Positions 15,908 through 48,332 are shown, counted from the first letter of the stretch. The stretch is 64,000 nt of DNA from Candidatus Kaelpia aquatica (GCA_030765335.1 JAVCCU010000025.1:6784-70783), one strand, 5' to 3'. The notes: generated by a model not told the origin, from the letters alone. A program made the numbers and translations.

Positions 15908-17410
15908 ATGAAGAAACTAATTATATTATTTATTATTCCAATTCTATTCTTGTCGTTTAGTTCTTATTCTAACTCTGAGGATTTGGAGCAATGCCCACTT
16001 GTTTTGCCGAGCATTACTTCTGGTGAATATTCAAAAGTTTTTTCGGGTAACGCGTTTAACAAGAGACTAAACGAGATATTGTTAAGTCAACAATTAAATG
16101 AAATAAATTCCGAAACGCTTTATAACTCTTATCTAATTCTGGCTATTGAAGGTCTTAATGGTATGGTCGAGCAAAATACAGGCTTGCCATATGATGTAGT
16201 AAGAGTAGGAGAAGGAAATGAACTAATACCTGTAGATAAAAAAGTAAGCGGATTGGAAATTGGTTTGCAGATATTGAATTTAGTTATCCAAAGAGATTTA
16301 GAAATTATGACAGATGATCAAGTTTTATTAAAAATGGATATTGTTTTAAATTCCATAGATAAAGCAGCGAAAAAAAACGGTTTTCTTTACGATTTTGTGT
16401 CTTTACCCAGTCTTAATAAACATAAACTGAGTAACGTTTCAGATGTGTTTAACAGCGGTTATTTGGCAGCAGCTTTAATGATAGCAAATCAAGCGTTTGA
16501 AGGAACTGTAGTTAGCGATAGATGTCAGTTGATTTTAGATGAAATGGATTTTAATTTCTTTTATTCCAATAATGGCCAGTTGTACGGCGATTCTAATAAA
16601 GGATATAGCGTCGGGCAGTTTGGCAGTGAGGTGCTATTACCTGCAATAGTTGCAACGTCAACAGACAATGTGCCTGATAGTGTCATAGCGCCTAGCGACT
16701 CAATATCGATTTATCGAGAGACATATACTACTAATGAGGGGGAAGAAATTAGTGTTATTCCTGCATGGGGTGGACAGATCTGGACTATACTTATGCCGCT
16801 TCTTTTCTTGGGACCTGAGGTGGAAAATCCTGATACAGGTGAAAATGTTATTGCTGGATTTATAGAGAATGCCAGACGTTGGGTAGAAATTCAGATTGAT
16901 GTAGCAGATAAGCTTGATTTAAATATTTGGGGTTGGTCTCCTTGTGCGGCTGTTTCTTCTAAGTATATTTACGATAGTGAAAATGGAGTTCCTGGTTTAG
17001 AGCAATATGGTAATGCTGGAAATCCGCGCAATAATCCTGTTGCTATATATGTTAGTTTTTTAGCGTTAGGTGTATTGTCTGGGTATGATGTAGCAAGCCC
17101 TCAAATACAAGCTACATTAGAAAATTTAGAAGCAATGATAAGTTTAAATCCAGATGTCAATAATTCAAATTATGGATTCCTAGATTCAATAACACAAGAC
17201 GGGGAAGTTTCACCATTTATATTAGGATTGGATAAAGGCATGGAAGTTATTGGTATGTTCAATGCCTACCGAAGAAGTAGTGGTAATCAGGGAATAGAAG
17301 GTTATTTTTGGCAGTATTTGGAAGAAAACGGAATGACAGATACAGTAAGAGAACTTCTTGGTCAACGTAGTAAAGAAATTTTGACGACAATCGGCGTTGA
17401 GAATATGTAG
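15908..17410 (+). CDS. secreted hypothetical protein (signal peptide; possibly carbohydrate-active, function unknown)
   Basis: 500 aa. N-terminal signal peptide MKKLIILFIIPILFLSFSSYS. No motif I can assign. Inserted between argB and pckG with its own strong promoter. Confidence 0.5.
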   Translation: MKKLIILFIIPILFLSFSSYSNSEDLEQCPLVLPSITSGEYSKVFSGNAFNKRLNEILLSQQLNEINSETLYNSYLILAIEGLNGMVEQNTGLPYDVVRVGEGNELIPVDKKVSGLEIGLQILNLVIQRDLEIMTDDQVLLKMDIVLNSIDKAAKKNGFLYDFVSLPSLNKHKLSNVSDVFNSGYLAAALMIANQAFEGTVVSDRCQLILDEMDFNFFYSNNGQLYGDSNKGYSVGQFGSEVLLPAIVATSTDNVPDSVIAPSDSISIYRETYTTNEGEEISVIPAWGGQIWTILMPLLFLGPEVENPDTGENVIAGFIENARRWVEIQIDVADKLDLNIWGWSPCAAVSSKYIYDSENGVPGLEQYGNAGNPRNNPVAIYVSFLALGVLSGYDVASPQIQATLENLEAMISLNPDVNNSNYGFLDSITQDGEVSPFILGLDKGMEVIGMFNAYRRSSGNQGIEGYFWQYLEENGMTDTVRELLGQRSKEILTTIGVENM

Positions 17411-27165: not shown

Positions 27166-27325
27166 ATTACAGGAGGTAGAAGGGCTTGAGAAAAAGATTA
27201 TGAAGAGAACAAAACTTAACAACATTATTCTCTGTATTATCGGTGCTCAGGAGGGGCATTGTCAAGATAGATTAAGGAATTCAAATAAACGGGTGTTTAA
27301 TTTGGTAAAAAAGGAGGAAGTTAAA

Positions 27326-27805
27326 ATGAATAAAGCATTAGTAATTCTTGTGTTAGGCATGTTGTTTATAACTCAGCTTGCATCTGCAGCAATTAATCAA
27401 ACAGGTCAAATCGCAATAAGTTTAAGGTTGGGTCAGGTGATTAACGAACGAGCTGATCAGGAAATTGAAGGTGCTCGCGAAATAAATGGAATCGCTGCAG
27501 GTATTGACGCTGGTACCATAGCGGTAACCGATAGAACTGTAGCAGAAAACGAAGGAGCGGCTTTTCTTGATTTTGTAAATAAAGTAAATGGTTTAAGCGA
27601 TGAAAAAACTAATGATGCAGTTGAAATTAAGCAATGTGCAGCTATGGCATTGAATGGTTCTGAATTAAGTTTGCCAGCTGAAGCAGTCGATGTGTTGGCT
27701 GGTAAGTGGTCTGATAATCTTGATAGCATGCTTGAGGAATTACAGAAAGCAGATCAGGTGTTAGACGATGATACGATGACTGCAGTTATGAATATACAAG
27801 AATAA
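27326..27805 (+). CDS. small secreted acidic hypothetical protein
   Basis: Start placed at ATG 27326 (AAGGAGG 8 nt upstream). Signal peptide MNKALVILVLGMLFITQLASA. The ORF track's extension to 27200 has no RBS and is not signal-like. Confidence 0.5.
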   Translation: MNKALVILVLGMLFITQLASAAINQTGQIAISLRLGQVINERADQEIEGAREINGIAAGIDAGTIAVTDRTVAENEGAAFLDFVNKVNGLSDEKTNDAVEIKQCAAMALNGSELSLPAEAVDVLAGKWSDNLDSMLEELQKADQVLDDDTMTAVMNIQE

Positions 27806-27816
27806 ATATTACGGAT

Positions 27817-27846
27817 GCTGGAGGCCTAAATAGGCCTCCAGCTTAA
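27817..27846 (+). terminator. GC-rich hairpin (possible terminator/attenuator)
   Basis: GCTGGAGGCCT-AAAT-AGGCCTCCAGC perfect 11-bp stem. The downstream tail is not T-rich, so it may be only a partial terminator. Confidence 0.4.
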
Positions 27847-27860
27847 AAGGGGAGAGTATT

Positions 27861-28009
27861 ATGAATAGAAAAAAGAAGATGTTTAAAACAAGGCAGCAAG
27901 AGTCTTTTTTTTATTCAATTAATAAAATCTTAATAAAAGATTTCATTAGCATTGTTGTTGCCTGCTCAATGCTTTTTGCTAATACTATCTGTTTGGCTGG
28001 CGATGAAGC
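27861..28009 (+). repeat. direct repeat copy 1 (149 bp) encoding the shared N-terminal leader
   Basis: Near-identical to 28738-28886. The differences cluster in one ~20 nt patch. Confidence 0.8.
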
Positions 28010-28745
28010 TGAGACAGTACATGCTGATGGTGTATTCACAACTATGCCTATGGCCCCTGCGGCCAGCGATCTTATGGGTGTATCTTTGATTGACCAGACA
28101 GAAATTGTTGCAATAGAGCGGGTAGGAGTATTGCGCATAGAAGAGTTTAATGTAGGTTTTCAAGTAACATATATGCTTAACAATGGTGCCAAGATGCTAC
28201 AAAGTTTAATCGTTTATCTTCCTATTAAGCGTGATGAAAATGAAGCGATAAGTGTCCCCGATGTCTATATCGAAACTCCTGAAATATCTGAAGCTGGGTT
28301 TCGTGGTGAATCTTGGAATATAAATCCTGGAGATGATTCTATTGGTTATCTTGAGATAGTAATTGTTAATAATGGAATTAACCTTATTACAGAGTATGCT
28401 CCGATTACTGATACGGCGATGGGTATTGAATTTACATATGATGGAGCTACGCGTGGCGTTTACAACCATGACCTTGATGATATTGATATGCTTAATCAAT
28501 GTACATCGATTGTGAAAACATTAAATTTCTTTCTCAATCTCGAAGATTTTGATAGCAACAGTGCTAGCCATAGCGTTGAAAATCCTTCGATTGATAATCC
28601 TTCGGTTGATAATGAAAGTAACTCAATTTTAGATCATTTTCAAACCTTTGCGTTGCGTTTTTTTCCTGCACTTTTTCTTGGAGGCACTTTAGCTTATGAG
28701 ATATATCTCCAACAGCAGCGTTGGATTAGGAGGAGTAATGAATAG
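27861..28745 (+). CDS. hypothetical protein with conserved basic N-terminal leader (MNRKKKMFK...ICLAGDEA)
   Basis: 294 aa. Shares its first ~50 aa almost exactly with the next gene. The rest is unique, with a PSIDNPSVDN repeat near the C-terminus. Confidence 0.55.
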   Translation: MNRKKKMFKTRQQESFFYSINKILIKDFISIVVACSMLFANTICLAGDEAETVHADGVFTTMPMAPAASDLMGVSLIDQTEIVAIERVGVLRIEEFNVGFQVTYMLNNGAKMLQSLIVYLPIKRDENEAISVPDVYIETPEISEAGFRGESWNINPGDDSIGYLEIVIVNNGINLITEYAPITDTAMGIEFTYDGATRGVYNHDLDDIDMLNQCTSIVKTLNFFLNLEDFDSNSASHSVENPSIDNPSVDNESNSILDHFQTFALRFFPALFLGGTLAYEIYLQQQRWIRRSNE

Positions 28746-28886
28746 AAAAAAGAAGATGTTTAAAGCAAGGCAGCAAGCATATTTTTTGTATTTAATTAAT
28801 AAAATCTTAATAAAAGATTTCATTAGCATTGTTGTTGCCTGCTCAATGCTTTTTGCTAATACTATCTGTTTGGCTGGCGATGAAGC
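28738..28886 (+). repeat. direct repeat copy 2 (149 bp) encoding the shared N-terminal leader
   Basis: Near-identical to 27861-28009. Confidence 0.8.
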
Positions 28887-31221
28887 AGTTGCGGATGTTG
28901 GAAAAACGGTTTTGCCGGAATTACGCGGTACCCTAGAAGATATTGCGGAATGTTTTGGTCGAGCAATAACCACAGATGATGTTACTGTAATCGAAAGAGG
29001 TGGAGAACTAGGTAACTTGCCATTTTTAAGTGAATTAGATTTACCTAATTATCTTAGTGAAGGTGCTCTCGGTAATTTACCTATTGAGATAAGGGACTAT
29101 AGTCTCGGAGACCTTAGTTTAAGTTCTATAGCTGGCATTGAAAGCAATCATCAGAGTACATTAGCGTGTACGAGAAATGGTGAACCAGAGTGGGCAATTA
29201 GGCGTAGCGTTAAAGATGGAGAAGTAAGCTTTACTGTTATGTGGGAAGAAGAGGGTGAGTATACAGAGTTGGCAGTTGATGCAGACGGCACTATAAGAAG
29301 AGTAATGCATGTAAGAACTTCTGGAGATTATAGAGGAGTATATGTTTATGAAAGTGATGATCCTGAAGGTTATGGACAGATTTTAATATCTGATTGGGAT
29401 AATTCAATGGCTAACCCAGCTAACCATAATCTCCCTTATACAGAAGAGGTTCAGGATAGATTTGATAATTATTTGGATTATCTGCCTTCTGTTGAAGAAT
29501 TTTTCAGCGATACGGCGACTTACATAGCAGAGACACCAGAAGAAGATAGAGTTAATTCCGATTTAAATGTTAGGGCAATTCCATACATTGTTTGGAATGA
29601 AAATATGGTAGATGATACTCCTGCTGATGCATTTGTGCACTCAGGGGGCACAGTGGTGTTTGCTCAAGTCGACATTGATGTATCTAAAGCGGAAGCTTTT
29701 AAATCAATCATGGATGAATTTTACAGATCTCTTGAGATTCTTGCAGGAGAAGAAGGAGGAGCAGGAGGAAGCGCAGTCGACCCTACTGTAGATGCTCAGG
29801 TAGCTTCTGAGTGGATAGGAGAATTTGCACATGATGCATTAGGAGAGGCTTTTGAAATATATGGAGTTGCAGGTGCTATGATGGCAGCCGTTCTTGATAC
29901 CTGGGCAGTTGCTACGAGTAGCTTTAGATTTTGTTTTGATTTTACCAAAGCTTATGAAACGTATACACCTGTAGTAGTTGATCCTGTGACCCTAAACTAT
30001 TACTTTGATACACCAGAAATTGATGCAACTCAGCCGCTGGATTTCAGTGATCAAGATTTTGTTGCGGGTCTATTCGGAGGCCATCTAGAAGCTGGCAATA
30101 TTGATCAAAGTGAATATGATGCCATTTTAGCGCAATATGAGTATTTCCGTCTTCTATCTTTGGATTATAACGATTCAGCTTTTGGTGAAGCTTTTGGTAC
30201 TCCAGTAGCATTCGATCCAGTTAATTATGGTGAACAGGTTGAGGTATATGTTAGCGATTTTAGAGATAATGGTAATATAGGTGCGCTAGAAAATCTTGCA
30301 GAAAGAATGGGACTGTATAAGTATGCATTTCTTACTTGGCTTGAGAAACGATATCCCCAGTTCTTGGTTGATGACGGCACTGCTATAACTGCAGGTCAGA
30401 TTAGTTTTTCTCCAAAATGGGCTCAGTTTGATGTGGCCGATGCGCTTGGTCTAGTAGCTACTATCTATACTCTTAGAGTCGAGGCGCTTAGCATGCTAGG
30501 AGGTGTATTAAAAGGAGCAGGTTGGGTTGCTAATAAGGCATCTTGGGTAAAGGTGGCTCAAGCACTAAATACATATTCCGCTTCTCTTAATGGAGCAGCT
30601 CTTACATATGCTGGATTTAGTGAATACGCCGCTCTCCGGGGTATAAGCGAGCACAAGATTTTAACAGCATTAGGCTTTGCCCCAGGGACAGGAGCTGCTT
30701 ACGGGCTTATAAGCAGGGCTGTATATTTCTCATTAGTTGGGCCTGCAACACAAGCTCTCAATGGCGATCCTATGCCTGAAACATTTCAGAGTTATCTTTA
30801 TGGTATTGGCGATCAGTTTGCAACCGGTGTTATATATTCGGGTATGTTTGGCTATGTTATGCCTCTTATGCAAGGGGGAGCTGGAGGTTCTATATTGCTT
30901 GCAAACTTAAAAAACCAAGCGATGTTTTGGGTATCAGAGATATATTTAGAAGAATACTTGCTTCAAAAAGCAGCAGAAACCATACATGATAGATATGATC
31001 CTAGGGGTTGGGATACAGCTGTTTTGTGGGATAAAGAATTTTATGGCAATTTGGCTGAAATATTTAATCCTTTGGAGATAATGATGTTGATTGGGACAGA
31101 TATAAAATCAGGCACTCATGGTGGAAGAAATACTGTACTAGCTGTGGGAGGTCTGTATGCTTTAGGATTAATAGTTGAAGGTTTGGAGCGAGCAACAGGC
31201 GTAAAGCTTTTTGGAGGTTAA
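28738..31221 (+). CDS. large hypothetical protein with the same N-terminal leader; Gly/Ala-rich hydrophobic C-terminal region
   Basis: Start at ATG 28738 (AGGAGG 4 nt upstream), overlapping the upstream gene's stop. About 827 aa. The C-terminal ~250 aa are rich in G/A with GxxxG-like motifs. Confidence 0.55.
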   Translation: MNRKKKMFKARQQAYFLYLINKILIKDFISIVVACSMLFANTICLAGDEAVADVGKTVLPELRGTLEDIAECFGRAITTDDVTVIERGGELGNLPFLSELDLPNYLSEGALGNLPIEIRDYSLGDLSLSSIAGIESNHQSTLACTRNGEPEWAIRRSVKDGEVSFTVMWEEEGEYTELAVDADGTIRRVMHVRTSGDYRGVYVYESDDPEGYGQILISDWDNSMANPANHNLPYTEEVQDRFDNYLDYLPSVEEFFSDTATYIAETPEEDRVNSDLNVRAIPYIVWNENMVDDTPADAFVHSGGTVVFAQVDIDVSKAEAFKSIMDEFYRSLEILAGEEGGAGGSAVDPTVDAQVASEWIGEFAHDALGEAFEIYGVAGAMMAAVLDTWAVATSSFRFCFDFTKAYETYTPVVVDPVTLNYYFDTPEIDATQPLDFSDQDFVAGLFGGHLEAGNIDQSEYDAILAQYEYFRLLSLDYNDSAFGEAFGTPVAFDPVNYGEQVEVYVSDFRDNGNIGALENLAERMGLYKYAFLTWLEKRYPQFLVDDGTAITAGQISFSPKWAQFDVADALGLVATIYTLRVEALSMLGGVLKGAGWVANKASWVKVAQALNTYSASLNGAALTYAGFSEYAALRGISEHKILTALGFAPGTGAAYGLISRAVYFSLVGPATQALNGDPMPETFQSYLYGIGDQFATGVIYSGMFGYVMPLMQGGAGGSILLANLKNQAMFWVSEIYLEEYLLQKAAETIHDRYDPRGWDTAVLWDKEFYGNLAEIFNPLEIMMLIGTDIKSGTHGGRNTVLAVGGLYALGLIVEGLERATGVKLFGG

Positions 31222-31225
31222 TAGA

Positions 31226-33154
31226 ATGAAGATTAATATGAGATATAATACAATTTTAATAATCACTATAGGGATGTTTTATACTATGGTTGCCTTAGAG
31301 TGTTCCGGGGCGGAGAATAATTTTTTAGATACATCTTCACTTTTCCGCTCTTTTGGCTCTGTTGTTCAAGCCGAGATTATGCTTCCTTTTAGTTCAGACG
31401 GTTCTGTTGTTGCAGATAATACTGAAAACGATGTTCCAGCAGAAGATTTGCTTTTTGCTTCAAATATAATCGAAATGTTTATAGAGGGTTCATCATTAGC
31501 GGATCTTGGCCTGGATGCATCCCAAGTCGAGCTCCTACAGTTATATTTTCCTGCATCGTTTGCTCTTATGCCATTTGCGCAAGAAAGGCCATTGAGTTTT
31601 TTGAACCCCGTCGTTTTATATGATGGCTCAAGACGCATTATTATAACTGAATCTATAGAAAGAGAGCCGATGCGTATTGATGATGCATGGGAAATGGAAT
31701 CCGTTAACGCTATCTTTGTTAATGTCAGGGATGTAGATGTTGATAGCGGGGCAATCATATACAGTACGTATGCATTTAAAGCCGAAGATTTTGACTTTTA
31801 TTATGGCAACAGCGTAGATGCGATTTTATCTTCTTTGGAGGGGAGAGTACCATATGCAATGCAATCTTACATATATAACCAGGATGATGGTTTATTTGAT
31901 GTAGAGGCTGCTTATTTTTCAGAAGCAGGAATCGACATTATTCAACAGGGAAGAGTATCACTTCATGAAGATGGTTTTGTTTGGTCTGCTGCTGAAGGAT
32001 CTTTTAAATTTTATTTTGATGAATCAAACAGTACGCTTAATATAGAAAATTATTTGCTTGATGAAATGATTAGTTCTACAGCTATTCATTGTGACGAAGA
32101 TTCTGGAAGTATAATAATAAAAGAAGGTGATTATGAAATCATCATATCTGATGTTGAGTTTTCACAATCTTTATACGATGGATCTATTGTAGCATATGGA
32201 GATGATGATGGATCAATACAAGATGGTGTATTTACTTATTATGAGATTAAGCATTGGACAACTATCATGAAGAATGATGAGTTGGTTGAATCTTGGTATG
32301 ACATATCTCATACTGCAAACGATTCTTCTTATAGAATTAAGATTTATTCTCAGAGCGCTGATAGTTCCTCCCCAGAATTTTATGCTCTTCAATATCAGGA
32401 AATAGGAGACGATGCTGCTTCTATTCGTAAATATGCTATTGAGCAAGACGAAGAAGAAGGCTTGTTGTATCGTAAGGTTTTTCATGTTTGGGATAGTTCC
32501 TATGCTCCAGGCAGTAGTTCTAGAATGTATTATATTGAAGATACGCCTGAAGATTGGCAAAATGCAAGCTGGTTTTTGCAAAGCGTTATCGATGAGCATT
32601 GTCAGCTTATATGTCAATCCGATACTGTTGTTTCTGCGGGAAAGGATGGTGATATTGTTATAACAAATAATGCATTTTACAACAGCGTCACTATAACAAG
32701 TGATTATGACGAGAGTATTCCTGGAGGGTTTCTTCAGCTTATAGAGAGTTACAGAGAATATCTATCCTCTAACCATCTTTTGAGTCGACCTGAGGTTGAA
32801 GAGGTTATAAATATAACCACTACCAAGGTGTTGTATCAAGATATTCGTTTGCCATATACGAGTCAGTTTTTAGAAATGATAGATAAAAATACAGGCTCAA
32901 ATCATCTTAGTAGTTTAGAAAATAAATCCGAGATTAAGATAAATATTGTCAATGAGGTTGCACGAGCATATCTAGAAAGAGGTATAAGTTTCTTTGGTTC
33001 TGCTTGGTCTTTACCTTCAGGGTTTACTCAGTTTTCTTTCGAATTTAGAAGCCTTATTCATAATACAGTTGTTCCTGAGTTGCAGGGCATGGTCCCTTAT
33101 GAATGGGATTATGACGAGGGGATACTAATTTTGTATCCTGATAGTGATAGTTAA
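31226..33154 (+). CDS. secreted highly acidic hypothetical protein
   Basis: Start at ATG 31226 (GGAGG upstream). Signal peptide MKINMRYNTILIITIGMFYTMVALECSGA. About 642 aa, D/E/S-rich, no recognisable domain. Confidence 0.5.
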   Translation: MKINMRYNTILIITIGMFYTMVALECSGAENNFLDTSSLFRSFGSVVQAEIMLPFSSDGSVVADNTENDVPAEDLLFASNIIEMFIEGSSLADLGLDASQVELLQLYFPASFALMPFAQERPLSFLNPVVLYDGSRRIIITESIEREPMRIDDAWEMESVNAIFVNVRDVDVDSGAIIYSTYAFKAEDFDFYYGNSVDAILSSLEGRVPYAMQSYIYNQDDGLFDVEAAYFSEAGIDIIQQGRVSLHEDGFVWSAAEGSFKFYFDESNSTLNIENYLLDEMISSTAIHCDEDSGSIIIKEGDYEIIISDVEFSQSLYDGSIVAYGDDDGSIQDGVFTYYEIKHWTTIMKNDELVESWYDISHTANDSSYRIKIYSQSADSSSPEFYALQYQEIGDDAASIRKYAIEQDEEEGLLYRKVFHVWDSSYAPGSSSRMYYIEDTPEDWQNASWFLQSVIDEHCQLICQSDTVVSAGKDGDIVITNNAFYNSVTITSDYDESIPGGFLQLIESYREYLSSNHLLSRPEVEEVINITTTKVLYQDIRLPYTSQFLEMIDKNTGSNHLSSLENKSEIKINIVNEVARAYLERGISFFGSAWSLPSGFTQFSFEFRSLIHNTVVPELQGMVPYEWDYDEGILILYPDSDS

Positions 33155-33320
33155 GTTAATGAGTAAAAAGGTTTTATTTGTGTATAGCCGTGCTCAGAAT
33201 TTTAGAAGAATCATTAGTCTCTTAGTGTACTTAGTGGTACAATAATTTCAAATTTAAAAGAAAAATTGAATCTGTATTGTTTATTGAATTTTGATATTTT
33301 TTTAGAACAATGATATTGTT

Positions 33321-34709
33321 ATGAAAATAAATGCATTATTTTTTGTTGCTATAGTTTGTTTTTTTATAAATTTAAAATTTGCTCATAGCTCCCAAAATAC
33401 TCAAGAATATAAAGTGCTTTTGGAAGAGTATGGTTTGAATTCATACCTCACGACAGATAATATAGATAGGTTGCAAGATTTTTCCAAATATGCAAAGTCT
33501 AAAGGAAAATTGCTAGACCTTTATCTGTTAAATTATTCTGAATTCCTAAAATTGTGTAAGAGCAATTTCTTTTTTACCATAGATGAAGAAGAGCCTAGTC
33601 AAGTATGCTTTTATGATAAAGAGATAGATGATATTGATAAACTCTACAATGCTTGTGGTGGATATATTGTTTCTCTCCCATTGGTAAATATAGTAGCACG
33701 GCATGTTTACCAAGATAGCAAAGGTAGTCTATCCCAAAATAACATTTTTGTAATATATCTTTTGCACGAAGGTGTCAATTTTTCTTTATTGCAACATTTA
33801 TTGGATAATATTATTGAAAAAGCAGGAGGGCCTTCTGCAGTTGTTTATATAGATGAGCTTGGGTTAATACCGGAAGACTCTGTCAATAGGTATAGCCAGG
33901 CTTACAAGATAAGCGAAAAAGAATCATTCGAAAAAATAAAAAATTCTCTTAAGAACGATATAAAATCAATAAGTATGGGCCATACTATTTATGATTCAAA
34001 CAAGCTTTATGCTCAGATATATAGCTATTTCGCAAAACATAAAATCGACTCTAATATGGAAGATCTTTCTTATGATAATTGGAAAAATATAGTTGCATTT
34101 GATAAGTTGAATTTATGGAGAAAAAGTGCGCGTTTGTTTTTAATGGGTGCGGTGAGAGCATGTATAGAATCTTCTCAAGAGTTTGTGTTTGGATTCATGT
34201 TGTACAATAATATAATGCGTGATGCTAATTTTTCAAATCAACTAAAAGCATTATTGTCTGATAAAAGTGGCACTACATTAATTACTATCCGTGGTCTTGG
34301 TCATTTTGGATTTGAAAAAAAATTGATAGAGGATGCAAATGTAAGTGTTTGTATTTTAGGCGACGAAGGAGACTCTTTCTTTACGCTAACAGCGCTCCGT
34401 GAAAGGTATATGATTTATCAAGTTAATGAAGTGATTTTAAGTAATGAAGAGGAAGATAGATTGCTATTAAATAGCGTACTTAGTTTTCTTATGTTTAATT
34501 ATTTGATAAAATATGGGATAGAAGACAATTACTATGATGCAATGAAAAGTACGATAGCATTATTAACGCCTCTATCTTTAGCACAGCTATATGCACTTCA
34601 AAGCAAACTATTTTATGAGTTGCAGGCAGGAAATTTCTCTAAAAATAATATCTATGAATTTATTTACAATTGGTGTAAAAATCAAACATTTATAAAAGAA
34701 GAGAACTAA
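33321..34709 (+). CDS. secreted hypothetical protein (very AT-rich gene)
   Basis: 462 aa. Signal peptide MKINALFFVAIVCFFINLKFAHS. Composition markedly more AT-rich than its neighbours. Confidence 0.5.
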   Translation: MKINALFFVAIVCFFINLKFAHSSQNTQEYKVLLEEYGLNSYLTTDNIDRLQDFSKYAKSKGKLLDLYLLNYSEFLKLCKSNFFFTIDEEEPSQVCFYDKEIDDIDKLYNACGGYIVSLPLVNIVARHVYQDSKGSLSQNNIFVIYLLHEGVNFSLLQHLLDNIIEKAGGPSAVVYIDELGLIPEDSVNRYSQAYKISEKESFEKIKNSLKNDIKSISMGHTIYDSNKLYAQIYSYFAKHKIDSNMEDLSYDNWKNIVAFDKLNLWRKSARLFLMGAVRACIESSQEFVFGFMLYNNIMRDANFSNQLKALLSDKSGTTLITIRGLGHFGFEKKLIEDANVSVCILGDEGDSFFTLTALRERYMIYQVNEVILSNEEEDRLLLNSVLSFLMFNYLIKYGIEDNYYDAMKSTIALLTPLSLAQLYALQSKLFYELQAGNFSKNNIYEFIYNWCKNQTFIKEEN

Positions 34710-34958: not shown

Positions 34959-35306
34959 TTGAACTACGATGGAATGGAAAGAAGGCAGTGGACTCGGGTC
35001 GATATGAATGTTCCCCTTAAATTCAGAGAAGTAGGTGAATTCAGCCGTTCTCCGCTTGATTCAGAGACAAGAGATATAAGTGAAGGTGGCATAAGATTTG
35101 CGACTGATAAGTTTCTTCCAAAAGATAGTAAGCTCGTTATAAACATAGATTTCCATGATATTCCAGCTGTTAAAGCAACTGCTAAAGTTTCTTGGTCGGT
35201 AAGAGATTCTCATACCAGCATGTATGAGATAGGTGTTGAGTTTGATACTATTCCTTCAGAAGCAAGAGTTCAACTTTCCAATATCGTCAGAAAAAACTTA
35301 AATTAA
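34959..35306 (+). CDS. PilZ domain protein (putative c-di-GMP receptor)
   Basis: 115 aa. RRQWTRV (RxxxR) and DISEGGIRF (DxSxGG) PilZ motifs. TTG start 7 nt after AAGGAG. Confidence 0.7.
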   Translation: MNYDGMERRQWTRVDMNVPLKFREVGEFSRSPLDSETRDISEGGIRFATDKFLPKDSKLVINIDFHDIPAVKATAKVSWSVRDSHTSMYEIGVEFDTIPSEARVQLSNIVRKNLN

Positions 35307-36334
35307 GATCTAGATCTATTCTTTCTCTCTAACTCTTTTTTCATCTCCAACTCTTTCAGTCTTTTTCTTCTATCCAAATCGTATTTGTCTATTTTCTTAT
35401 TCAAAGCCTGGCGAGATATTCCAAGCAGATTTGCAACCTTAGATTTATTCCACTTAAGTTCATATAGTATCTCAGTCAATATCTTCTGTTCATATATCTC
35501 AACTACGCCTTTAAGCGTCTTATCTTTTACTGCCACTAGTTTAAGGTTTACTCCTCCAGACCTTAACTTTTCAGACAGGTCGCTGGGCAGTATATGAGGC
35601 CCCTCTGATAGTATTACAGCTCTCTCTATCTCATGCTCTAATTCTCGTATATTGCCCGGCCAGTCATACTCTAGGAGATATTTTATTGCATCTGGCACCA
35701 TGTTTTTTATGGATTTCTTATCATTCTTATCGGCATATAGTCGCAGGAAATGCTCTGCTAAGACCGGGATGTCGTCTCTCTTGTCTCTTAGCGGTGGAAT
35801 TGGGATATCTATGACACAAAGCCTGTAAAAGAGGTCTCTTCTAAACCCGCCTCTCTCTACCTCTTTTTCCAGATTTCTATTTGTTGCTGCTACTATTCTT
35901 ACATCTACAGATATATCACTTGTTGCTCCGACTCTCTTTATAGTCCCTTCCTGTAAGACTCTTAAGAGCTTAGATTGCAGGCCTGGTGAAACCTCGCTTA
36001 CTTCATCTAAAAAGAAGGTTCCTTTATCGGCTGCTTCAAATAAACCTTTCTTCTCAGCTATTGCTCCGGTAAATGAGCCTCTGATATGACCGAATAGTTC
36101 TGATTCAAGTAATGTCTCAGTTAGGGCTGAGCAGTTAACAGCTATAAAAGGAGCATTTCTTCTTTTGGAGTGATAATGAAGCGCTTTAGCGATCAGCTCT
36201 TTACCTGTTCCTGTCTCACCTCTTATTAAAATCGTACTGTTTGTATTTACAACCTTTTCCATGATTCTGTAGACTTCTTTCATGTGACTGTTTGTACCTA
36301 TTATCTCTGGAAATGGATTCTGATATTCTTCCAT
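35303..36334 (-). CDS. sigma-54-dependent transcriptional activator (AAA+ and Fis-type HTH only; no N-terminal receiver/sensor domain)
   Basis: 343 aa. GETGTGKE Walker A, ESELFGH, the GAFTGA-region variant GSFTGA and a C-terminal HTH. The stop codon overlaps the PilZ gene stop convergently. Confidence 0.85.
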   Translation of the reverse strand: MEEYQNPFPEIIGTNSHMKEVYRIMEKVVNTNSTILIRGETGTGKELIAKALHYHSKRRNAPFIAVNCSALTETLLESELFGHIRGSFTGAIAEKKGLFEAADKGTFFLDEVSEVSPGLQSKLLRVLQEGTIKRVGATSDISVDVRIVAATNRNLEKEVERGGFRRDLFYRLCVIDIPIPPLRDKRDDIPVLAEHFLRLYADKNDKKSIKNMVPDAIKYLLEYDWPGNIRELEHEIERAVILSEGPHILPSDLSEKLRSGGVNLKLVAVKDKTLKGVVEIYEQKILTEILYELKWNKSKVANLLGISRQALNKKIDKYDLDRRKRLKELEMKKELERKNRSRS

Positions 36335-36336
36335 AC

Positions 36337-37683
36337 TTAACTCCTCCTTAACTTTGTAGGCAGTATTTTAAGTCTTTCTCTGTATTTAGCTACTGTCCTT
36401 CTTGCAATAGTGATTCCATCCTCTTTCAAAAGCTGCGTAATCTTATTGTCGCTAAGAGGTTTCTTGGAATCTTCCGCTACAACTATATCTTTTATCTTCT
36501 CCTTGATTAATTTACTTGAAATGCCTTTCACATTGCTTGAGAAGAAATCTCTTAATTCAAATATCCCAGAAGGTGTATCGATATATTTGCCATTTACAGT
36601 CCTTGAGATTGTGGATTCATCTAATCCAGTGCTCTCTGAAACCCTATTTAGAGTTAAGGGTTTGAGTCCGGCCTTTCCCTTTTTAAAGAACTCTTTCTGG
36701 TGATTTATAATAAAATCAGTAATTTTGATTATAGTTTTTCCTCTCTGCTCCATTGCCTGAATAAGCTCTTTCGTTGTTTTAAGCTTATCTTTAAGGTATC
36801 TCTTTGTCTCTTCAGGCGTTGAGGGATCCTTTAATATCTTAAGATACTGCTTATTTATCCTTATTTTTGGAATATCTCTCTTATTGGTTCTAATCTGATA
36901 TTTGCCGTCTGGTGCTATATCTAAAAATACTTCTGGTATTGCATAGTTGGGGAATGCGCTAGTATAATTTCTGCCTGGTTTTGGATCCAAGCTTTTCAGC
37001 ATCTTTAAGAACTCTTCCATCTTCTTATCGGTTATCTTTAGCTCTTTCTCTATCTTCTTGTAATTATGTGTGGCAAGCTCCTCCAGGAACCGCTCTATTA
37101 TCTGCTGGAATATTTTTTCTTTTAACCCTTTCCTTGCAAGCTGTATGGTTAGACATTCTTTTAGATCTCTGGCTCCGATTCCAGCAGGTTCAAAATCCTG
37201 AACTATTTTTAAAATTTGTTCACATTTTTTATTTGAAACTTTTAATTTCTCGGCTATCTCAAGCAGGGCTATTTCAAGATATCCGTTGGGGTTTAAATTT
37301 CCTATTATCTCTTCACCTATTAAAAGATTATTAACGCTTATCCTCTGCATATGGAGCTGTTTTAAGAGGTGTTCTTGGAGTGTCTCAGGTTTTGTGACTA
37401 GACTTTCAATGTGCGCTCTTTTTTTAGCGTCTTCCTGACCAAACTTTTCAGACCTCTTCTCCCAGATATTGTCTTCTTGAAATTCAAATTTCTCTTCATC
37501 GGGTATCTCGGGTACTTTCTCTTCTTCGATCTCAAGAAGCGGGTTCTCTTCGAACTCTTCTTCTAGTTTTTCTTTAAGCTCTGTGATTGGCACTTGAAGA
37601 AGGTTTAATAGCTGCCAGAATTGAGGCAACAGCTTAAGTTTTAGCGCCAAGTGCTGTTCAAGGCGGGGGATCATTCTTTCCAT
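36337..37683 (-). CDS. rpoN: RNA polymerase sigma-54 factor
   Basis: 448 aa. C-terminal RpoN box ARRTVAKYR and an acidic region I/II. Confidence 0.9.
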   Translation of the reverse strand: MERMIPRLEQHLALKLKLLPQFWQLLNLLQVPITELKEKLEEEFEENPLLEIEEEKVPEIPDEEKFEFQEDNIWEKRSEKFGQEDAKKRAHIESLVTKPETLQEHLLKQLHMQRISVNNLLIGEEIIGNLNPNGYLEIALLEIAEKLKVSNKKCEQILKIVQDFEPAGIGARDLKECLTIQLARKGLKEKIFQQIIERFLEELATHNYKKIEKELKITDKKMEEFLKMLKSLDPKPGRNYTSAFPNYAIPEVFLDIAPDGKYQIRTNKRDIPKIRINKQYLKILKDPSTPEETKRYLKDKLKTTKELIQAMEQRGKTIIKITDFIINHQKEFFKKGKAGLKPLTLNRVSESTGLDESTISRTVNGKYIDTPSGIFELRDFFSSNVKGISSKLIKEKIKDIVVAEDSKKPLSDNKITQLLKEDGITIARRTVAKYRERLKILPTKLRRS

Positions 37684-44412: not shown

Positions 44413-44685
44413 ATGAAAAAGCGTATTTTATTTATTATGTTACTGCTTTTTTTATCTAGTATCTCATTGGATGAATTTCAGAATATTCCGCTGAATTGTT
44501 TCAGGAGATTGAGGGCAGATGGTAATATTAATTTTTATCAGATAGTCCAAAATATCTTAATGGATTTAGAAGGAAGAATTACAAATGTGGACAAGGTTGT
44601 TGTATTTGATGAGCTTCGTTACGGAGTCCATGGTGGTATTTCCTGGAAGACATTGCAAATATGTTTACTGATGAAAATCAAGTGA
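44413..44685 (+). CDS. hypothetical signal-peptide ORF, possibly the 5' part of a frameshifted gene continuing at 44661-45323
   Basis: 90 aa. Signal peptide MKKRILFIMLLLFLSSISL. The downstream ORF in another frame opens right after a stop at 44610-12. Confidence 0.35.
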   Translation: MKKRILFIMLLLFLSSISLDEFQNIPLNCFRRLRADGNINFYQIVQNILMDLEGRITNVDKVVVFDELRYGVHGGISWKTLQICLLMKIK

Positions 44686-45323
44686 TACGTGTAACCAATG
44701 TACCTGTAGATGAGAGTGGAATGATTGCATATCAAACGAATAGTAGTTTGGGGGTGATGTTTCCTGGTCAATTCCGAGTCTGTATAGGTGAAGAATATGC
44801 AAATAAAAGAGCAGATGTATTGTTTTCCAAAGACCAGGGTAATAGCATGGTAGTGTTGCGAGTTGAAATAGATGGACAAATTATTATTGATGAGACGATG
44901 GTTTCATATCTTGTGAATGAAAATGGAATCGAACTTTATGCCCCATCGTGCAGCAATAATGTATTTGGGGTAGAGCCTTTTCAGGATTATTTTTACTTTA
45001 GGTCTAGGAGTTCTGAAGGCGATAATGCCTTGTATATTGTAAATCAGCGTCTTTCTACCAAAGGGGGATTCATTCTTTTCAGTAGAACTTATGAGGAAAT
45101 ACTTTCAGATCAACTTGCTAATGCCGTTGTGGTTGTTAAGGTTGAGCGAGAATCGCAATCCGAGCATGATTTTATAGTTTCGGTGATCGTTGTTGAAGAT
45201 AAGGAAGGTAGGCCTATTTTTGATAAATTCGGCAAATCGATTGTATATCATTTCCGGGGTGTTTTAGAAAGAGATCGGTTTCTGAGCTACTCTCTGGAAT
45301 TAATCAAGGGGTCTGAGTTATAA
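44661..45323 (+). CDS. hypothetical protein (possible 3' part of a frameshifted secreted protein gene)
   Basis: 220 aa with no signal peptide of its own. Overlaps the preceding ORF by 25 nt in a different frame. Confidence 0.4.
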   Translation: MFTDENQVIRVTNVPVDESGMIAYQTNSSLGVMFPGQFRVCIGEEYANKRADVLFSKDQGNSMVVLRVEIDGQIIIDETMVSYLVNENGIELYAPSCSNNVFGVEPFQDYFYFRSRSSEGDNALYIVNQRLSTKGGFILFSRTYEEILSDQLANAVVVVKVERESQSEHDFIVSVIVVEDKEGRPIFDKFGKSIVYHFRGVLERDRFLSYSLELIKGSEL

Positions 45324-45521: not shown

Positions 45522-45550
45522 TTGACTAGATGTATTTGTATGGTATAAAT
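45522..45550 (+). promoter_or_regulatory. sigma70-type promoter TTGACT-N16-TGGTATAAAT
   Basis: TTGACT at 45522-45527 and TGGTATAAAT at 45541-45550, upstream of the repeat-protein gene. Confidence 0.55.
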
Positions 45551-45579
45551 ATATTATCAATTGATAAAGAGGGGGTTAA

Positions 45580-46231
45580 TATGAAATGTAATAAGCTTAG
45601 TGTTGTTTTGGTGTGTTTTATTCTCATAGGTTCTGTTGTTTTTATTCCTGGTCATGCTTATGCCAGAAGAATAAAAGACGATAGTTCAGAACTATCAACA
45701 GAAGATTTAATTCGTATTTCTAATGCTGTTGATTATTTTATTGAACAAGACAGCATGAGAGTCGAAATGTCAACAGAAAATAGAGAAAAATATATAGATT
45801 ATCTACAGAAATGTAATCTTCAAACCTCAGAAAGGAATATACAGTTGTTTGCAAGATTGAACAAGTCATCTGTTGATGCAGGTTTTAATCTTGAACATAA
45901 TGCACCTTCTTATCCTGGAAATACATTTGATGTTCTTAAATCTCTGACAGAAACAGGCATCGTAACCGAAGATAATCTACCTCAATTAATAAATTTAGGC
46001 ATAACATCTGCTGAAGCAGGTTTTCATCCTTGGCATACGTTCAGAGCTCTTGAATTTCTGGCAAAAACAGGTATCTTAATCGAAACTAATCTACCTTAGG
46101 TAATAGATTTAGGCATAGCATCTGCTAAACTACGTCTTAAGCCTTGGGATATATTCAACGTTCTTAAATCTTTGGCAGAATTAGGTGTCTTAACAGAAGA
46201 TAATCTATCTTTGATAATTCTCAAGGATTAA
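45580..46231 (+). pseudogene. secreted tandem-repeat protein interrupted by an in-frame TAG (CAG->TAG within a repeat unit)
   Basis: Signal peptide MKCNKLSVVLVCFILIGSVVFIPGHAYA. ~35-aa repeats (…NLPQLINLGITSAEAGF…). After TAG at 46097-99 the same frame continues the repeat (VIDLGIASAKLRLKPWDIFNVLKSLAELGVLTEDNLSLIILKD) to TAA at 46229-31. TAG is a genuine stop elsewhere in the window. Confidence 0.55.
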
Positions 46232-47213: not shown

Positions 47214-48332
47214 ATGTTTAAAGCTGGAAATTACAAGCAACAATATGAATACAAAAGTTTTTTGCCATCGTTAGTTAACGTTGATTATCAGTGGGAGGAT
47301 AGGCAAATTGTTGTTTTATTAGAAAACGCTATGCGTTATCTGGGGGAACTCAATGCCTATTCAACGCTAGTTCCGGACGTGGATTTTTTTATTCAAATGC
47401 ATGTGGCAAAAGAAGCTACGACGTCCAGTCGTATTGAAGGGACAAGAACCAATATTGACGAAGTTGTTTTGCCTGAGAATGAAATCAGTCCTGAAAAACG
47501 TGATGACTGGGCAGAGGTTCAAAATTATATCAAGGCAATGAATTTTGCTATTGATGAGCTTGATAAATTGCCTTTATCGATGAGGCTGCTCAAAGAGACG
47601 CATAAGAGATTGCTCTCAGGTGTAAGAGGTCATCATAAACTTCCGGGAGAAGTAAGAAGAAGCCAAAACTGGATTGGCGGATCAAGCTTAAAAGATGCTT
47701 TTTTCGTTCCGCCACACCATGAAGATTTACCGGATTTGTTGACCGACCTTGAAAAATTTTGGCACAGCAAGGAAATCAATCTTCCTCGTTTAATTCGGGT
47801 TGCCATCAGCCATTATCAATTTGAAACGATTCACCCTTTTCTGGACGGTAATGGCAGGGCAGGACGACTTCTTATAACTTTGCAATTAGTTGATATGGAC
47901 ATATTGAATAAGCCTTGTCTCTATCTTTCAGATTTTTTTGAAAGAAATAAGGGGTCATACTATGATTCATTGAGTGTAGCAAGAGCTTCAAATGATCTTG
48001 ACCAGTGGATAAAGTTTTTTCTTTCAGGAGTCATTGATACAGCTAAGAATGGGAAGGAAACTTTAGAAACCATTGTTAAGCTCAGAAAACAATATGATGA
48101 CAAAATTATAACTATGGGAAGAAAAGCCAAGCCAGCTCAAAAACTGCTTTTGTTCCTTTTTTCGCATCCAATTGTTTCTATCGGGCAGGTCTCTGATCAT
48201 TTAGGAGTAGGATTTTCCGCGGGCGGAAGATTAATAGCGGATTTTCAAAGAGTCGGATTTTTAAAAGAAGTGACAGGTTTTTCTAGAAATAGGTTGTTTG
48301 CGCTGTCGGAGTATTTATCGTTGTTTAAATAG
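47214..48332 (+). CDS. Fic family protein (AMPylase-type) with intramolecular inhibitory motif
   Basis: 372 aa. Fic motif [12 protein letters not shown] and N-terminal inhibitory [ST]xxxE[GN] motif SSRIEG (class II arrangement). RBS AGAGGTG upstream. Confidence 0.85.

What the first reader, a model, noticed from the sequence alone, without database searches (positions are those of the whole stretch)
28738..31221. ~830 aa leader-bearing protein with a Gly/Ala-rich, glycine-zipper-like hydrophobic C-terminal region
The C-terminal ~250 residues (…GAGWVANKASWVKVAQALN…GFAPGTGAAYGLISRAVYFSLVGPATQALNG…GGAGGSILLANL…AVGGLYALGLIVEGL…) are dominated by G, A and small residues. They carry GxxxG/AxxxG patterns typical of membrane-inserting or pore-forming helices, as in colicin-type channel domains or glycine-zipper toxins.

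The N-terminal two-thirds is acidic and aromatic-rich. The start codon overlaps the upstream leader-sharing gene, which suggests translational coupling.
Basis: inference. Interest (0 to 1): 0.6.

Follow-up and report, generated by a model that had tools for sequence, protein, structure and literature searches.

The report
Exported orphan protein, unproven membrane tail
This is a real gene for an exported, acidic protein found in only a handful of uncultured Omnitrophota bacteria; its small-residue-rich tail is a conserved, newly seen module that may touch a membrane, but nothing tested here shows it is a pore-forming toxin.

Summary
The ORF (28738-31221, +, 827 aa) is real. It is identical to a hypothetical protein of the Candidatus Kaelpia aquatica MAG (Omnitrophota, Ace Lake) and is under purifying selection (dN/dS 0.34 against a 70%-identical orthologue).

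The quoted peptides, the 8-nt start/stop overlap, a strong Shine-Dalgarno site and the acidic, aromatic-rich N-terminal part are all confirmed. The last 250 aa hold 26% G+A, against 14.4±3.5% for the window's proteins. A soluble acyl-CoA dehydrogenase in the window reaches the same value. GxxxG and small-xxx-small counts match shuffles (P 0.2-0.6), and the most distant homologue has only 15% G+A.

Exhaustive searches found four distinct family members. They share a roughly 300-aa C-terminal module with charge-poor, non-amphipathic predicted helices and an invariant acidic motif. The N-terminal part holds one PepSY-like unit. There are no Pfam, NCBIfam, PHROG, PADLOC or PDB matches. AlphaFold failed twice.

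No C-terminal segment reaches the hydrophobicity of this genome's own transmembrane helices, yet one 32-aa charge-free run (51 aa in a homologue) is otherwise seen only in membrane proteins. No immunity-like gene is nearby.

Best reading (about 0.4): a membrane-associated envelope protein acting with its two coupled neighbours. The pore-former reading (about 0.12) is unsupported but not excluded.

The parts
28728..28735 (+). Shine-Dalgarno-like AGGAGGAG, ending 2 nt before the ATG at 28738; it lies inside the 3' end of the upstream gene
   Evidence: sequence read directly
28738..28745 (+). 8-nt overlap ATGAATAG: start codon of the 827-aa gene and stop codon (28743-28745) of the upstream 294-aa gene
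28738..28875 (+). Leader, residues 1-46: a basic N-terminal extension of about 26 aa, the hydrophobic core FISIVVACSMLFANTICLA, and a probable signal-peptidase-I site CLA|GDEA. The cleavage site is inferred. No canonical lipobox is present.
   Evidence: It is the only segment of the protein with TM-grade hydrophobicity (KD 2.19, Hessa sum +0.1). The orthologue P0003 has ...FAWA|NGD at the same place.
27861..28010 (+). Second copy of the same leader, at the 5' end of the upstream 294-aa gene (27861-28745). 143 of 149 nt are identical to 28738-28886, and identity then collapses.
28876..30312 (+). Acidic, aromatic-rich, poorly conserved N-terminal and middle part of the mature protein (residues 47-525)
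   Evidence: pI 4.05, D+E 18.7%, K+R 5.4%. Many indels among homologues. dN/dS 0.30-0.49 outside the PepSY-like unit.
29059..29301 (+). PepSY-like beta unit (residues 108-188; core 147-187)
   Evidence: It matches the PepSY-repeat protein P0007 (E 3.9e-6 across 1.8 billion proteins; BLASTP 1.5e-8). P0007 hits PF11396 and PF03413 at about 5e-21. An HMM built from the P0007 repeats hits residues 147-187 at 4.5e-6. This is the most constrained part of the gene (dN/dS 0.10). There is no direct Pfam hit.
29830..29979 (+). Conserved middle element (residues 365-414): an apolar helix EIYGVAGAMMAAVLDTWAVA followed by invariant R397 and D401
   Evidence: Aligns with P0003 residues 541-590. Invariant columns are listed.
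30313..31218 (+). Conserved C-terminal module (residues 526-827), the defining feature of the family. Motifs: YPQ, GQ, DA..AT...L..E, Y....R...F....P, G.Q...G..Y.G, SE...EE..L, EF.GN..E..NP.EI.
   Evidence: 32% identity over 308 aa to P0003 and 26% over 266 aa to P0005. Both AlphaFold runs give the same helix boundaries, but at pLDDT around 30.
30526..30636 (+). Kaelpia-specific insertion (residues 597-633), the most G/A-rich stretch (34% G+A). It is absent from P0003 and P0005.
30814..30909 (+). 32-residue charge-free segment (residues 693-724) with a central PLMQGGAGG turn. It is a candidate helical hairpin and holds the only family-conserved small-xxx-small-xxx-small motif (G697, S701, G705).
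   Evidence: The run is 51 aa in P0003 and 23 aa in P0005. Hydrophobicity is only marginal (Hessa +6.7 to +6.9).
30934..31080 (+). Acidic stretch with the invariant motifs SE(I/V)..EE..L and EF.GN..E..NP.EI (residues 733-781)
31129..31185 (+). Last apolar helix NTVLAVGGLYALGLIVEGL (residues 798-816), a possible C-terminal anchor
   Evidence: KD 1.53, Hessa +4.8. The equivalent segment of P0005 scores +2.1 and is followed by RTLKP.
31226..33154 (+). Downstream gene of 642 aa: signal peptide, pI 4.06, no known domain. Its ATG lies 4 nt after the 827-aa gene's stop, with GGAGG at 31213-31217.
   Evidence: The same gene follows the orthologue in L001, L006, L007 and L008.
27323..27805 (+). First gene of the acidic exported cluster (160 aa from ATG 27323, or 201 aa from ATG 27200). 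A GC-rich hairpin lies between its stop and 27861.

Best explanation
The gene encodes a lineage-restricted, Sec-exported, modular cell-envelope protein.

A cleavable leader sends it across the inner membrane; the cleavage site is inferred. The mature protein has two parts:
- an acidic, fast-evolving outer part that contains one PepSY-like beta unit;
- a conserved C-terminal module of about 300 aa, built of long, charge-poor, non-amphipathic predicted helices plus an invariant acidic motif.

My inference is that this module holds the protein on or in a membrane after export. The candidate membrane-contacting elements are the 693-724 charge-free hairpin and the last helix, 798-816. I further infer that it works as one subunit of an envelope or surface complex with the products of the two tightly linked neighbours: the 294-aa protein with the same leader, and the 642-aa acidic protein.

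Shown here: the gene is real and constrained, it carries an export leader, it has a PepSY-like unit, and the C-terminal module is conserved and has unusual physico-chemistry.

Inferred: membrane association, complex formation and the cellular role.
For: - Real, constrained gene: dN/dS is 0.34 overall, 0.10 in the PepSY-like unit and 0.27-0.34 in the C module.
- Export leader: it is the only TM-grade hydrophobic segment, and P0003 has an AxA-type site at the same place.
- PepSY-like unit, a domain type typical of extracytoplasmic proteins.
- C module conserved in all four family members despite 26-32% identity.
- Its apolar segments stay apolar at every position in the divergent members (reading of the alignment) and have low hydrophobic moments (0.08-0.20).
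- Charge-free runs of 32 aa (51 aa in P0003) occur in this window otherwise only in BacA, MurJ, FeoB and a flippase. Proteins assigned by Pfam to soluble families reach at most 24 aa.
- In P0005 the first and last apolar segments reach near-TM values (+2.8 and +2.1).
- Operon signals: an 8-nt overlap upstream and a 4-nt gap downstream, each with a Shine-Dalgarno site. The downstream neighbour is conserved in the sister population.
- The four cluster proteins from 27323 to 33154 have signal peptides and share a strikingly low pI (4.06-4.44) and low K+R (5-7%); the fifth, at 33321, also has a signal peptide but pI 5.23.
Against: - No segment of the C module in this protein reaches the hydrophobicity of this genome's own transmembrane helices. 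It scores +4.8 to +6.7, against mostly -4 to +3. Soluble enzymes in the window also have occasional segments at +3.9 to +6.3.
- No 3D model is available (pLDDT 29-40), so helix packing and topology are unknown.
- Positive-inside reasoning gives no consistent topology.
- No homologue has any experimental or annotated function.
- Complex formation with the neighbours rests on gene arrangement alone.
Confidence: 0.4

Rival explanations
1. Soluble exported protein with no membrane role. The C-terminal module is an ordinary globular all-helical domain with an Ala/Gly-rich core. The invariant acidic and polar residues (D568, E582, R660, Q693, E734, E738, E739, E767, N771, E774, N777, E780) form a catalytic or ligand/metal-binding site.
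For: - The hydrophobic segments score in the range of buried helices of soluble enzymes in the same window.
- A soluble acyl-CoA dehydrogenase has the same G+A content.
- There are many invariant charged residues in the module.
- G/A-richness is not conserved in P0005.
- The marginal segments would probably pass through SecYEG without stopping (inference).
Against: - There are four apolar, non-amphipathic segments within 260 aa, whereas soluble enzymes here have 0-2 per 400-1000 aa.
- The charge-free run of 32-51 aa exceeds anything in the window's proteins that Pfam assigns to soluble families.
- No enzyme or binding-domain family matches.
Confidence: 0.28
2. Classical polytopic inner-membrane protein. 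After the leader, a periplasmic PepSY-bearing domain is followed by four co-translationally inserted transmembrane helices, at roughly residues 566-592, 641-675, 693-724 and 798-816.
For: - Four apolar segments lie at conserved positions.
- P0005's first and last segments score +2.8 and +2.1.
- The loop between segments 1 and 2 is basic and the loop between segments 2 and 3 is acidic, which fits the positive-inside rule (sequence).
Against: - All four segments in this protein are marginal (at least +4.8). The window's real membrane proteins have a majority of segments below +3.
- Segment 1 has only 13 apolar residues between the invariant D568 and E582. Segment 2 carries an invariant Arg at its centre.
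- An odd/even count of crossings conflicts with the basic C-terminal tail of P0005.
Confidence: 0.18
3. One reading: a secreted alpha-helical pore-forming toxin or effector. Its C-terminal module is stored as a soluble bundle and inserts a helical hairpin into a target membrane, as in colicin-type, diphtheria-T-domain-type or glycine-zipper toxins.
For: - The protein is exported and helix-rich, with a 32-51-aa charge-free segment split by a Gly-rich turn. That is similar in length to colicin-type hairpins, by my own knowledge of those toxins.
- The marginal hydrophobicity is compatible with a soluble-to-membrane switch.
- The host phylum is thought to be symbiotic, predatory or parasitic. For other ultra-small microbes, poorly annotated large proteins have been proposed to form pores in host envelopes (PMC10066038).
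Against: - No match to any Pfam family, colicin and Gly-zipper models included, or to any PDB chain.
- The zipper motifs are at chance level.
- G/A-richness is absent from P0005.
- No immunity-like small membrane gene lies nearby, and the flanks are housekeeping genes.
- No phage, plasmid, viral-contig or defence-system link.
- Selection is purifying and not diversifying.
- No structure is available to compare.
Confidence: 0.12

Closest known systems
PepSY / PepSY_like domain proteins (Pfam PF03413, PF11396), e.g. M4 peptidase propeptides, YpeB and secreted multi-PepSY proteins such as P0007
   Same: Residues 108-188 align with the repeat unit of a bona fide PepSY-repeat protein. The pattern is a strand-rich '...Y.V.F...G....L.VD.DG.I' unit. 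As in most PepSY proteins, the domain sits behind a signal peptide, so it is extracytoplasmic.
   Different: There is only one unit, and it falls below Pfam's own detection level. It covers about 10% of the protein, and nothing else in the protein resembles known PepSY-protein architectures. No peptidase or PepSY-associated TM (PF03929-type) region was detected.
Colicin-type pore-forming domains (Pfam PF01024) and related helical 'inside-out' toxins (diphtheria toxin T domain, Bcl-2-like)
   Same: Both sit at the C-terminal end, are helical (here by low-confidence prediction), and have a long charge-free stretch interrupted by a turn that could form a helical hairpin.
   Different: - No sequence match.
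- The candidate hairpin is far less hydrophobic (KD about 1.1-1.25).
- The module is about 300 aa, with helices predicted at 23-35 residues, not a compact bundle of about 200 aa and 10 helices (the comparison figures are my own knowledge).
- It has a Sec leader, which colicins lack.
- There is no immunity gene.
Glycine-zipper membrane proteins and toxins (GxxxGxxxG; Pfam Gly-zipper families)
   Same: One small-xxx-small-xxx-small motif (G697-S701-G705) is kept in all four members, as G/S/G or G/A/A.
   Different: Motif density equals the chance expectation for the composition. No Pfam Gly-zipper match. The most distant member is not Gly/Ala-rich.
Surface-protein gene families with a shared, concertedly evolving 5' leader, e.g. 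Mycoplasma Vsp/Vlp variable lipoproteins (from my own knowledge, not tested against those sequences)
   Same: Two otherwise unrelated adjacent genes share a near-identical 5' end of about 150 nt. Identity is 96% here and 99% in the sister population, against 83-85% between the two populations, which indicates gene conversion. In the sister population the leader is found after three different upstream genes.
   Different: Only 2-3 copies exist. There is no lipobox, no recombinase, no invertible element and no repeat-expansion regions. The variant gene orders may be assembly artefacts across a 147-nt exact repeat.

Membership tests
Colicin-type pore-forming domain (PF01024) | Sequence match to the family profile | tested here: not met
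   No Pfam hit at E<=1 for the whole protein or at E<=10 for residues 340-827 of all four members. No PDB chain matches by phmmer or by profile.
Colicin-type pore-forming domain (PF01024) | Globular helical bundle that buries a strongly hydrophobic helical hairpin | tested here: inconclusive
   A charge-free run of 32 aa (51 aa in P0003) with a central Gly-rich turn exists, but its hydrophobicity is low (Hessa +6.7, KD 1.1). The 3D models are unusable (pLDDT 28.8 and 39.6). Foldseek found nothing below E = 2.
Colicin-type pore-forming domain (PF01024) | Adjacent gene for a small membrane immunity protein | tested here: not met
   All ORFs in 27200-34709 are large exported acidic proteins or spurious antisense ORFs. 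None is a small hydrophobic ORF.
Glycine-zipper proteins (GxxxGxxxG) | Zipper motifs more frequent than the composition predicts, and conserved | tested here: not met
   Observed counts equal the shuffle means (P 0.22-0.63). Only one small-xxx-small-xxx-small motif is conserved across members. G+A is 14.9% in P0005.
PepSY domain (PF03413 / PF11396) | Direct match to the Pfam model above its gathering score | tested here: not met
   No hit at E<=1.
PepSY domain (PF03413 / PF11396) | Significant similarity to a protein that is itself a clear PepSY member | tested here: met
   P0007 matches residues 108-188 with E 3.9e-6 library-wide and 1.5e-8 pairwise. P0007 matches PF11396 at 4.4e-21 and PF03413 at 5.5e-21. 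A repeat HMM hits residues 147-187 at 4.5e-6.
Sec-type cleavable signal peptide | Basic n-region, hydrophobic h-region, small residues at -3 and -1 | tested here: met
   The sequence reads MNRKKK...KD / FISIVVACSMLFANTI / CLA|G, with KD 2.19 and Hessa +0.1. P0003 has AWA|N at the same place. No dedicated predictor such as SignalP was available. The n-region is unusually long, at about 26 aa.
Type V autotransporter | ESPR-type extended signal peptide and a C-terminal beta-barrel | tested here: not met
   No ESPR or Autotransporter Pfam hit. The C-terminal region shows no beta (160-180 degree) hydrophobic periodicity (z -1.1 to -1.5) and is predicted helical.
C-terminal sorting signals (PEP-CTERM, GlyGly-CTERM, LPXTG and similar) | Match to the NCBIfam/TIGRFAM sorting-domain models | tested here: not met
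   No NCBIfam hit at E<=1 other than a meaningless 0.14 hit to nitrosuccinate lyase.
Integral polytopic membrane protein | Several segments with TM-grade hydrophobicity | tested here: not met
   Apart from the leader, the best five 19-mers score +4.8 to +6.7. BacA, MurJ, FeoB and the flippase of the same window score mostly -4 to +3.
Anti-phage defence, phage or plasmid protein | Match in PADLOC, PHROGs, phage or plasmid records, or IMG/VR | tested here: not met

The most novel reading that the evidence does not exclude
The C-terminal module is a previously undescribed class of helical membrane-insertion or translocator domain. An ultra-small, possibly host-dependent Omnitrophota cell uses it to attach to or breach a partner cell's envelope. 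The shared 150-nt leader acts as a recombination cassette that reshuffles or duplicates the surface/effector genes behind it, which would explain the variant gene orders seen in the sister population.
Probability: 0.08. Interest if true: 0.7.

Novelty: new variant of a known kind. Interest (0 to 1): 0.3.

Why it matters
Omnitrophota are uncultured, mostly ultra-small bacteria suspected of living on other cells. How they contact partners is unknown, and their large envelope proteins are mostly unannotated (PMC10066038).

This protein defines a tiny family of four distinct sequences among billions searched. Its C-terminal module is conserved and physico-chemically odd, and it sits in an operon of acidic exported proteins. 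If the module proved membrane-active, it would be a new membrane-interaction domain and a handle on Omnitrophota cell-surface biology.

As things stand it is a well-delimited orphan family, not a demonstrated toxin. The practical result is a negative one: composition-driven 'glycine zipper' calls need a shuffle control and a check in homologues.

Tried and rejected
**Structure and fold**
- AlphaFold2 on the full length with a 2-sequence alignment gave pLDDT 28.8.
- AlphaFold2 on residues 340-827 with all four members gave pLDDT 39.6. Only residues about 440-550 reached 68-85.
- Foldseek against the PDB with that model had a best E of 2.4, which is meaningless.

**Homologue searches**
- The word-indexed search with the protein found only itself and one orthologue.
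- The same search with the C-module alignment scored nothing, not even the query. I guess that Gly/Ala-rich words filled the candidate list; this was not checked.
- The same search with P0005 found only itself.
- Exhaustive phmmer found six proteins in all.
- Collection scans added Saelkia (= P0003) from the genomes, three contigs identical to P0002 from the metagenomes, and nothing from viral contigs.

**Family and record libraries**
- Pfam, NCBIfam, PHROGs, PADLOC, PDB sequences (single and profile), and tblastn against phages and plasmids all returned nothing.

**Ideas considered and rejected**
- Autotransporter, suggested by the extended leader and C-terminal domain. Rejected: no beta periodicity and no Pfam hit.
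- Lytic transglycosylase (ES...LMQ) and CorA (YGMN-like) motif resemblances. Rejected: the motifs are not conserved or not in the right context, and there are no Pfam hits.
- Lipoprotein. Rejected: there is no lipobox, and the Cys is absent from P0003.
- Sigma-54 promoter upstream, because rpoN and an activator lie nearby. Matches were at chance level: 24 found against 20±5 expected.
- Sigma-70 promoter and terminator scans were uninformative.
- Homology between the 642-aa neighbour and the gene downstream of P0005. hhalign probability was 0.4%, so none.
- Alternative start at 28696. Rejected in favour of 28738, on the Shine-Dalgarno site, the leader repeat and the NCBI gene model.


Full report
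**1. What is in the sequence**

The + strand carries an ORF from 28696 to 31221. The start used here is the ATG at 28738, for three reasons:
- AGGAGGAG lies at 28728-28735.
- The ATG overlaps the stop of the upstream gene in ATGAATAG (28738-28745).
- The 827-aa product is 100% identical, end to end, to 'hypothetical protein P9X27_04400' of a Candidatus Kaelpia aquatica MAG. This is an Omnitrophota genome from Ace Lake, Antarctica (PMC8542988).

The next gene starts at ATG 31226, 4 nt after the stop, behind GGAGG at 31213-17. The 294-aa, 827-aa and 642-aa genes are therefore packed as an operon.

**2. How unusual the composition is**

- The last 250 residues contain 26% G+A, and residues 566-725 contain 30%. 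Windows of 250 aa across the window's ORFs average 14.4±3.5%. This is the top value in the window.
- The soluble acyl-CoA dehydrogenase at 7657-8817 reaches 25.6%.
- Counts of GxxxG, [GA]xxx[GA], [GAS]xxx[GAS] and triple zippers are indistinguishable from 2000 composition-preserving shuffles (P = 0.22-0.63). The 'glycine-zipper-like' pattern is therefore a by-product of composition.
- The richest stretch (residues 597-633, 34% G+A) is an insertion found only in the Kaelpia-type proteins.
- The same module in the most distant homologue has 14.9% G+A, the proteome average.
- The N-terminal two-thirds is indeed acidic and aromatic-rich: D+E 18.7%, K+R 5.4%, F/W/Y 12.4%, pI 4.05.

**3. Is it a real gene?**

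Against the 70%-identical orthologue P0002, dN/dS is 0.34 overall. By region it is 0.10 in residues 136-220, 0.27 in 641-725, 0.34 in 726-785, and 0.44-0.49 in the poorly conserved middle. The gene is real and constrained.

**4. Relatives**

- The word-indexed search of 5.8 billion proteins returned only the protein itself and P0002.
- The exhaustive phmmer pass over 1.84 billion cluster representatives returned six proteins:
  - the protein itself;
  - P0003 (1022 aa, E 5e-28), which lies on a Candidatus Saelkia tenebricola contig, also from Ace Lake;
  - P0005 (952 aa, E 4e-9), on a Logan contig;
  - the upstream neighbour and its orthologue, matched through the leader only;
  - P0007.
- The metagenome scan found three more contigs. 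In the shared parts they are 99.9-100% identical to the P0002 contigs.
- P0005 has no other relatives.
- The family therefore has four distinct members.
- Nothing matches in Pfam, NCBIfam, PHROGs, PADLOC, PDB sequences, phage records, plasmid records or IMG/VR.

**5. Anatomy**

(a) *Leader, residues 1-46.* The sequence is MNRKKKMFKARQQAYFLYLINKILIKD-FISIVVACSMLFANTI-CLA|GDEA.
- It is the only segment with TM-grade hydrophobicity (KD 2.19, Hessa sum +0.1).
- P0003 has FAWA|NGD at the same position and no Cys, so the leader reads as a signal-peptidase-I leader, not a lipoprotein leader.

(b) *Acidic variable part, residues 47-525.*
- It contains one PepSY-like unit. Residues 108-188 match the repeats of P0007.
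- P0007 is itself a clear PepSY/PepSY_like protein (about 5e-21).
- The target does not reach Pfam's model directly.

(c) *Conserved middle element, residues 365-414*.

(d) *C-terminal module, residues 526-827.*
- It is 32% identical to P0003 over 308 aa and 26% identical to P0005 over 266 aa.
- Its invariant motifs are YPQ, GQ, D568-A...A-T...L...E582, Y655....R660...F664....P669, G691.Q693...G697..Y700.G702, S733-E734...E738-E739..L742, and E767-F.G-N..E..N-P.E-I781.

**6. Physical character of the C module**

- *Secondary structure.* Both AlphaFold runs give the same long helices (566-597, 603-633, 652-674, 681-711, 718-752, 795-820), but at pLDDT around 30. Hydrophobic periodicity shows no beta signal (z -1.1 to -1.5 at 160-180 degrees). 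The helices are non-amphipathic (moment 0.08-0.20).
- *Hydrophobicity, calibrated on this window's own proteins.* BacA, MurJ, a flippase and FeoB have most transmembrane segments at Hessa sums of -4 to +3 (KD 1.7-2.9). Soluble enzymes have 0-2 segments at +3.9 to +6.3. The target has five segments at +4.8 to +6.7 and none lower apart from the leader.
- *Charge-free runs.* The run at 693-724 is 32 aa long. It is 51 aa in P0003 and 23 aa in P0005. In this window only integral membrane proteins have runs of this length (33-44 aa), apart from one 30-aa run that includes a signal peptide. Proteins that Pfam assigns to soluble families stop at 24 aa.
- *Substitution pattern.* In the alignment, the apolar segments stay apolar at all positions in all members (reading). 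That is not expected for surface-exposed helices of a soluble bundle.
- *P0005.* Its first and last apolar segments approach TM values, at +2.8 and +2.1.

Taken together, the module is too weakly hydrophobic for a standard polytopic membrane domain. It is also too charge-poor and too non-amphipathic for a typical soluble domain.

**7. Context**

- The gene sits in a run of five exported proteins with no known domains (27200/27323-34709). The first four, up to 33154, have pI 4.06-4.44 and the lowest K+R in the window; the fifth (33321-34709) has pI 5.23.
- The flanks are housekeeping or regulatory genes: queC, queE-like, fumarate hydratase-like, RNase PH-like, rdgB-like, PEPCK, a PilZ protein, a sigma-54 activator, rpoN and sugar-nucleotide enzymes. 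Some of these names come from Pfam hits and others from reading the translations.
- There is no secretion-system gene, no mobile-element gene and no small hydrophobic immunity-like ORF.
- P0005 is likewise flanked by two exported proteins with no known domains. They are not detectably homologous to the neighbours here.

**8. Interpretation**

The best-supported statement is this. The gene encodes an exported, modular envelope protein with a PepSY-bearing variable acidic part and a new, conserved helical C-terminal module. The module's physico-chemistry suggests association with a membrane after export, and the protein probably acts with its two tightly linked neighbours. I put this at about 0.4.

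The rivals are:
- a purely soluble exported protein with a globular helical domain (about 0.28);
- a classical four-TM inner-membrane protein (about 0.18);

The toxin idea is not refuted. The charge-free hairpin-like segment and the marginal hydrophobicity are what a soluble-to-membrane switch would look like. Omnitrophota are also suspected symbionts or predators. But every specific line offered for it fails:
- the zipper motifs are at chance level;
- G/A-richness is not conserved in the family;
- there is no family match;
- there is no immunity gene.

The fold test could not be run to a usable confidence.

**9. Side observation on the leader**

- The first 149 nt of the 294-aa and 827-aa genes are 96% identical. 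The next 149 nt are 34% identical.
- In the sister population the two leaders are 148/149 identical, 147 of them in an exact run. Between the populations they are only 83-85% identical. This pattern indicates ongoing gene conversion.
- In that population the leader follows three different upstream genes, and contigs from different metagenomes join it to different bodies: 201-like→842, 294-like→842, 647-like→842 and 647-like→294-like.
- One contig (L007) is a circular permutation of another (L001).
- The exact repeat (147 nt) exceeds the assembler k-mer implied by the contig names k141_, which I read as k = 141. These joins may therefore be graph artefacts. Even so, a third leader copy after the 647-like gene exists there and not in this window.

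**10. Verdict**

The result is a well-delimited orphan family with one recognisable domain and an undescribed C-terminal module. Its function is unproven. Interest is modest (0.3).

Noticed in passing
window 27861-28010 and 28738-28887; L001 357-528; L006 991-; L007 4445-4616 and 5337-; L008 832-: The roughly 150-nt leader shared by two otherwise unrelated genes evolves in concert. Identity within a genome is 96% here and 99% in the sister population, against 83-85% between the populations. In the sister population the leader follows three different upstream genes. Contigs from five assemblies, which are 99.9-100% identical elsewhere, join it to different gene bodies, and L007 is a circular permutation of L001. 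This could be recombination or tandem duplication through the leader. It could also be assembly ambiguity across a 147-nt exact repeat, which is longer than the k of 141 suggested by the contig names.
   Followed up: partly
window 27200-27322: The ORF of the first cluster gene extends 41 codons upstream of the obvious signal-peptide start (ATG 27323). This extension (MKRTK...AQEGHCQDRL...) is open and conserved in the sister population (L008), with pN 0.23 against pS 0.49. It may be a translated N-terminal extension before the signal peptide, which recalls the long n-region of the shared leader.
   Followed up: partly
window 27861-28745: The upstream 294-aa leader-sharing protein ends in a marginally hydrophobic stretch followed by a basic, Trp-rich tail (FFPALFLGGTLAYEIYLQQQRWIRRSNE). 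Its orthologue ends in VFPALALGAAILHDLCIQRLNWWRWQNEENE. This looks like a C-terminal anchor or an unrecognised sorting signal. The protein is only 48% identical between the two populations, against 70-76% for its neighbours.
   Followed up: partly
window 15908-17410: Another 500-aa ORF with an N-terminal hydrophobic leader, pI 4.22 and K+R 5.8% has no Pfam match. It has the same 'acidic exported orphan' character as the cluster but lies 10 kb away.
   Followed up: no
window 34959-37683: A PilZ-domain gene (34959-35306, +) lies directly downstream of the exported-protein cluster. It converges on a sigma-54 activator (35303-36334, -) and rpoN (36337-37683, -). Loose sigma-54 promoter-like matches at 33235 and 34715 are at chance frequency.
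   Followed up: partly
window 47214-48332: A Fic/DOC-family protein (Fic_N plus Fic) lies among housekeeping genes. Two short ORFs without Pfam matches precede it (44661-45323 and 45530-46099).
   Followed up: no
L004 459-1115 and 4074-5423: The most distant homologue (P0005) is also flanked by two signal-peptide-bearing proteins with no known domain. These show no detectable similarity to the neighbours in this window, so the arrangement is analogous but the genes are not homologous.
   Followed up: partly
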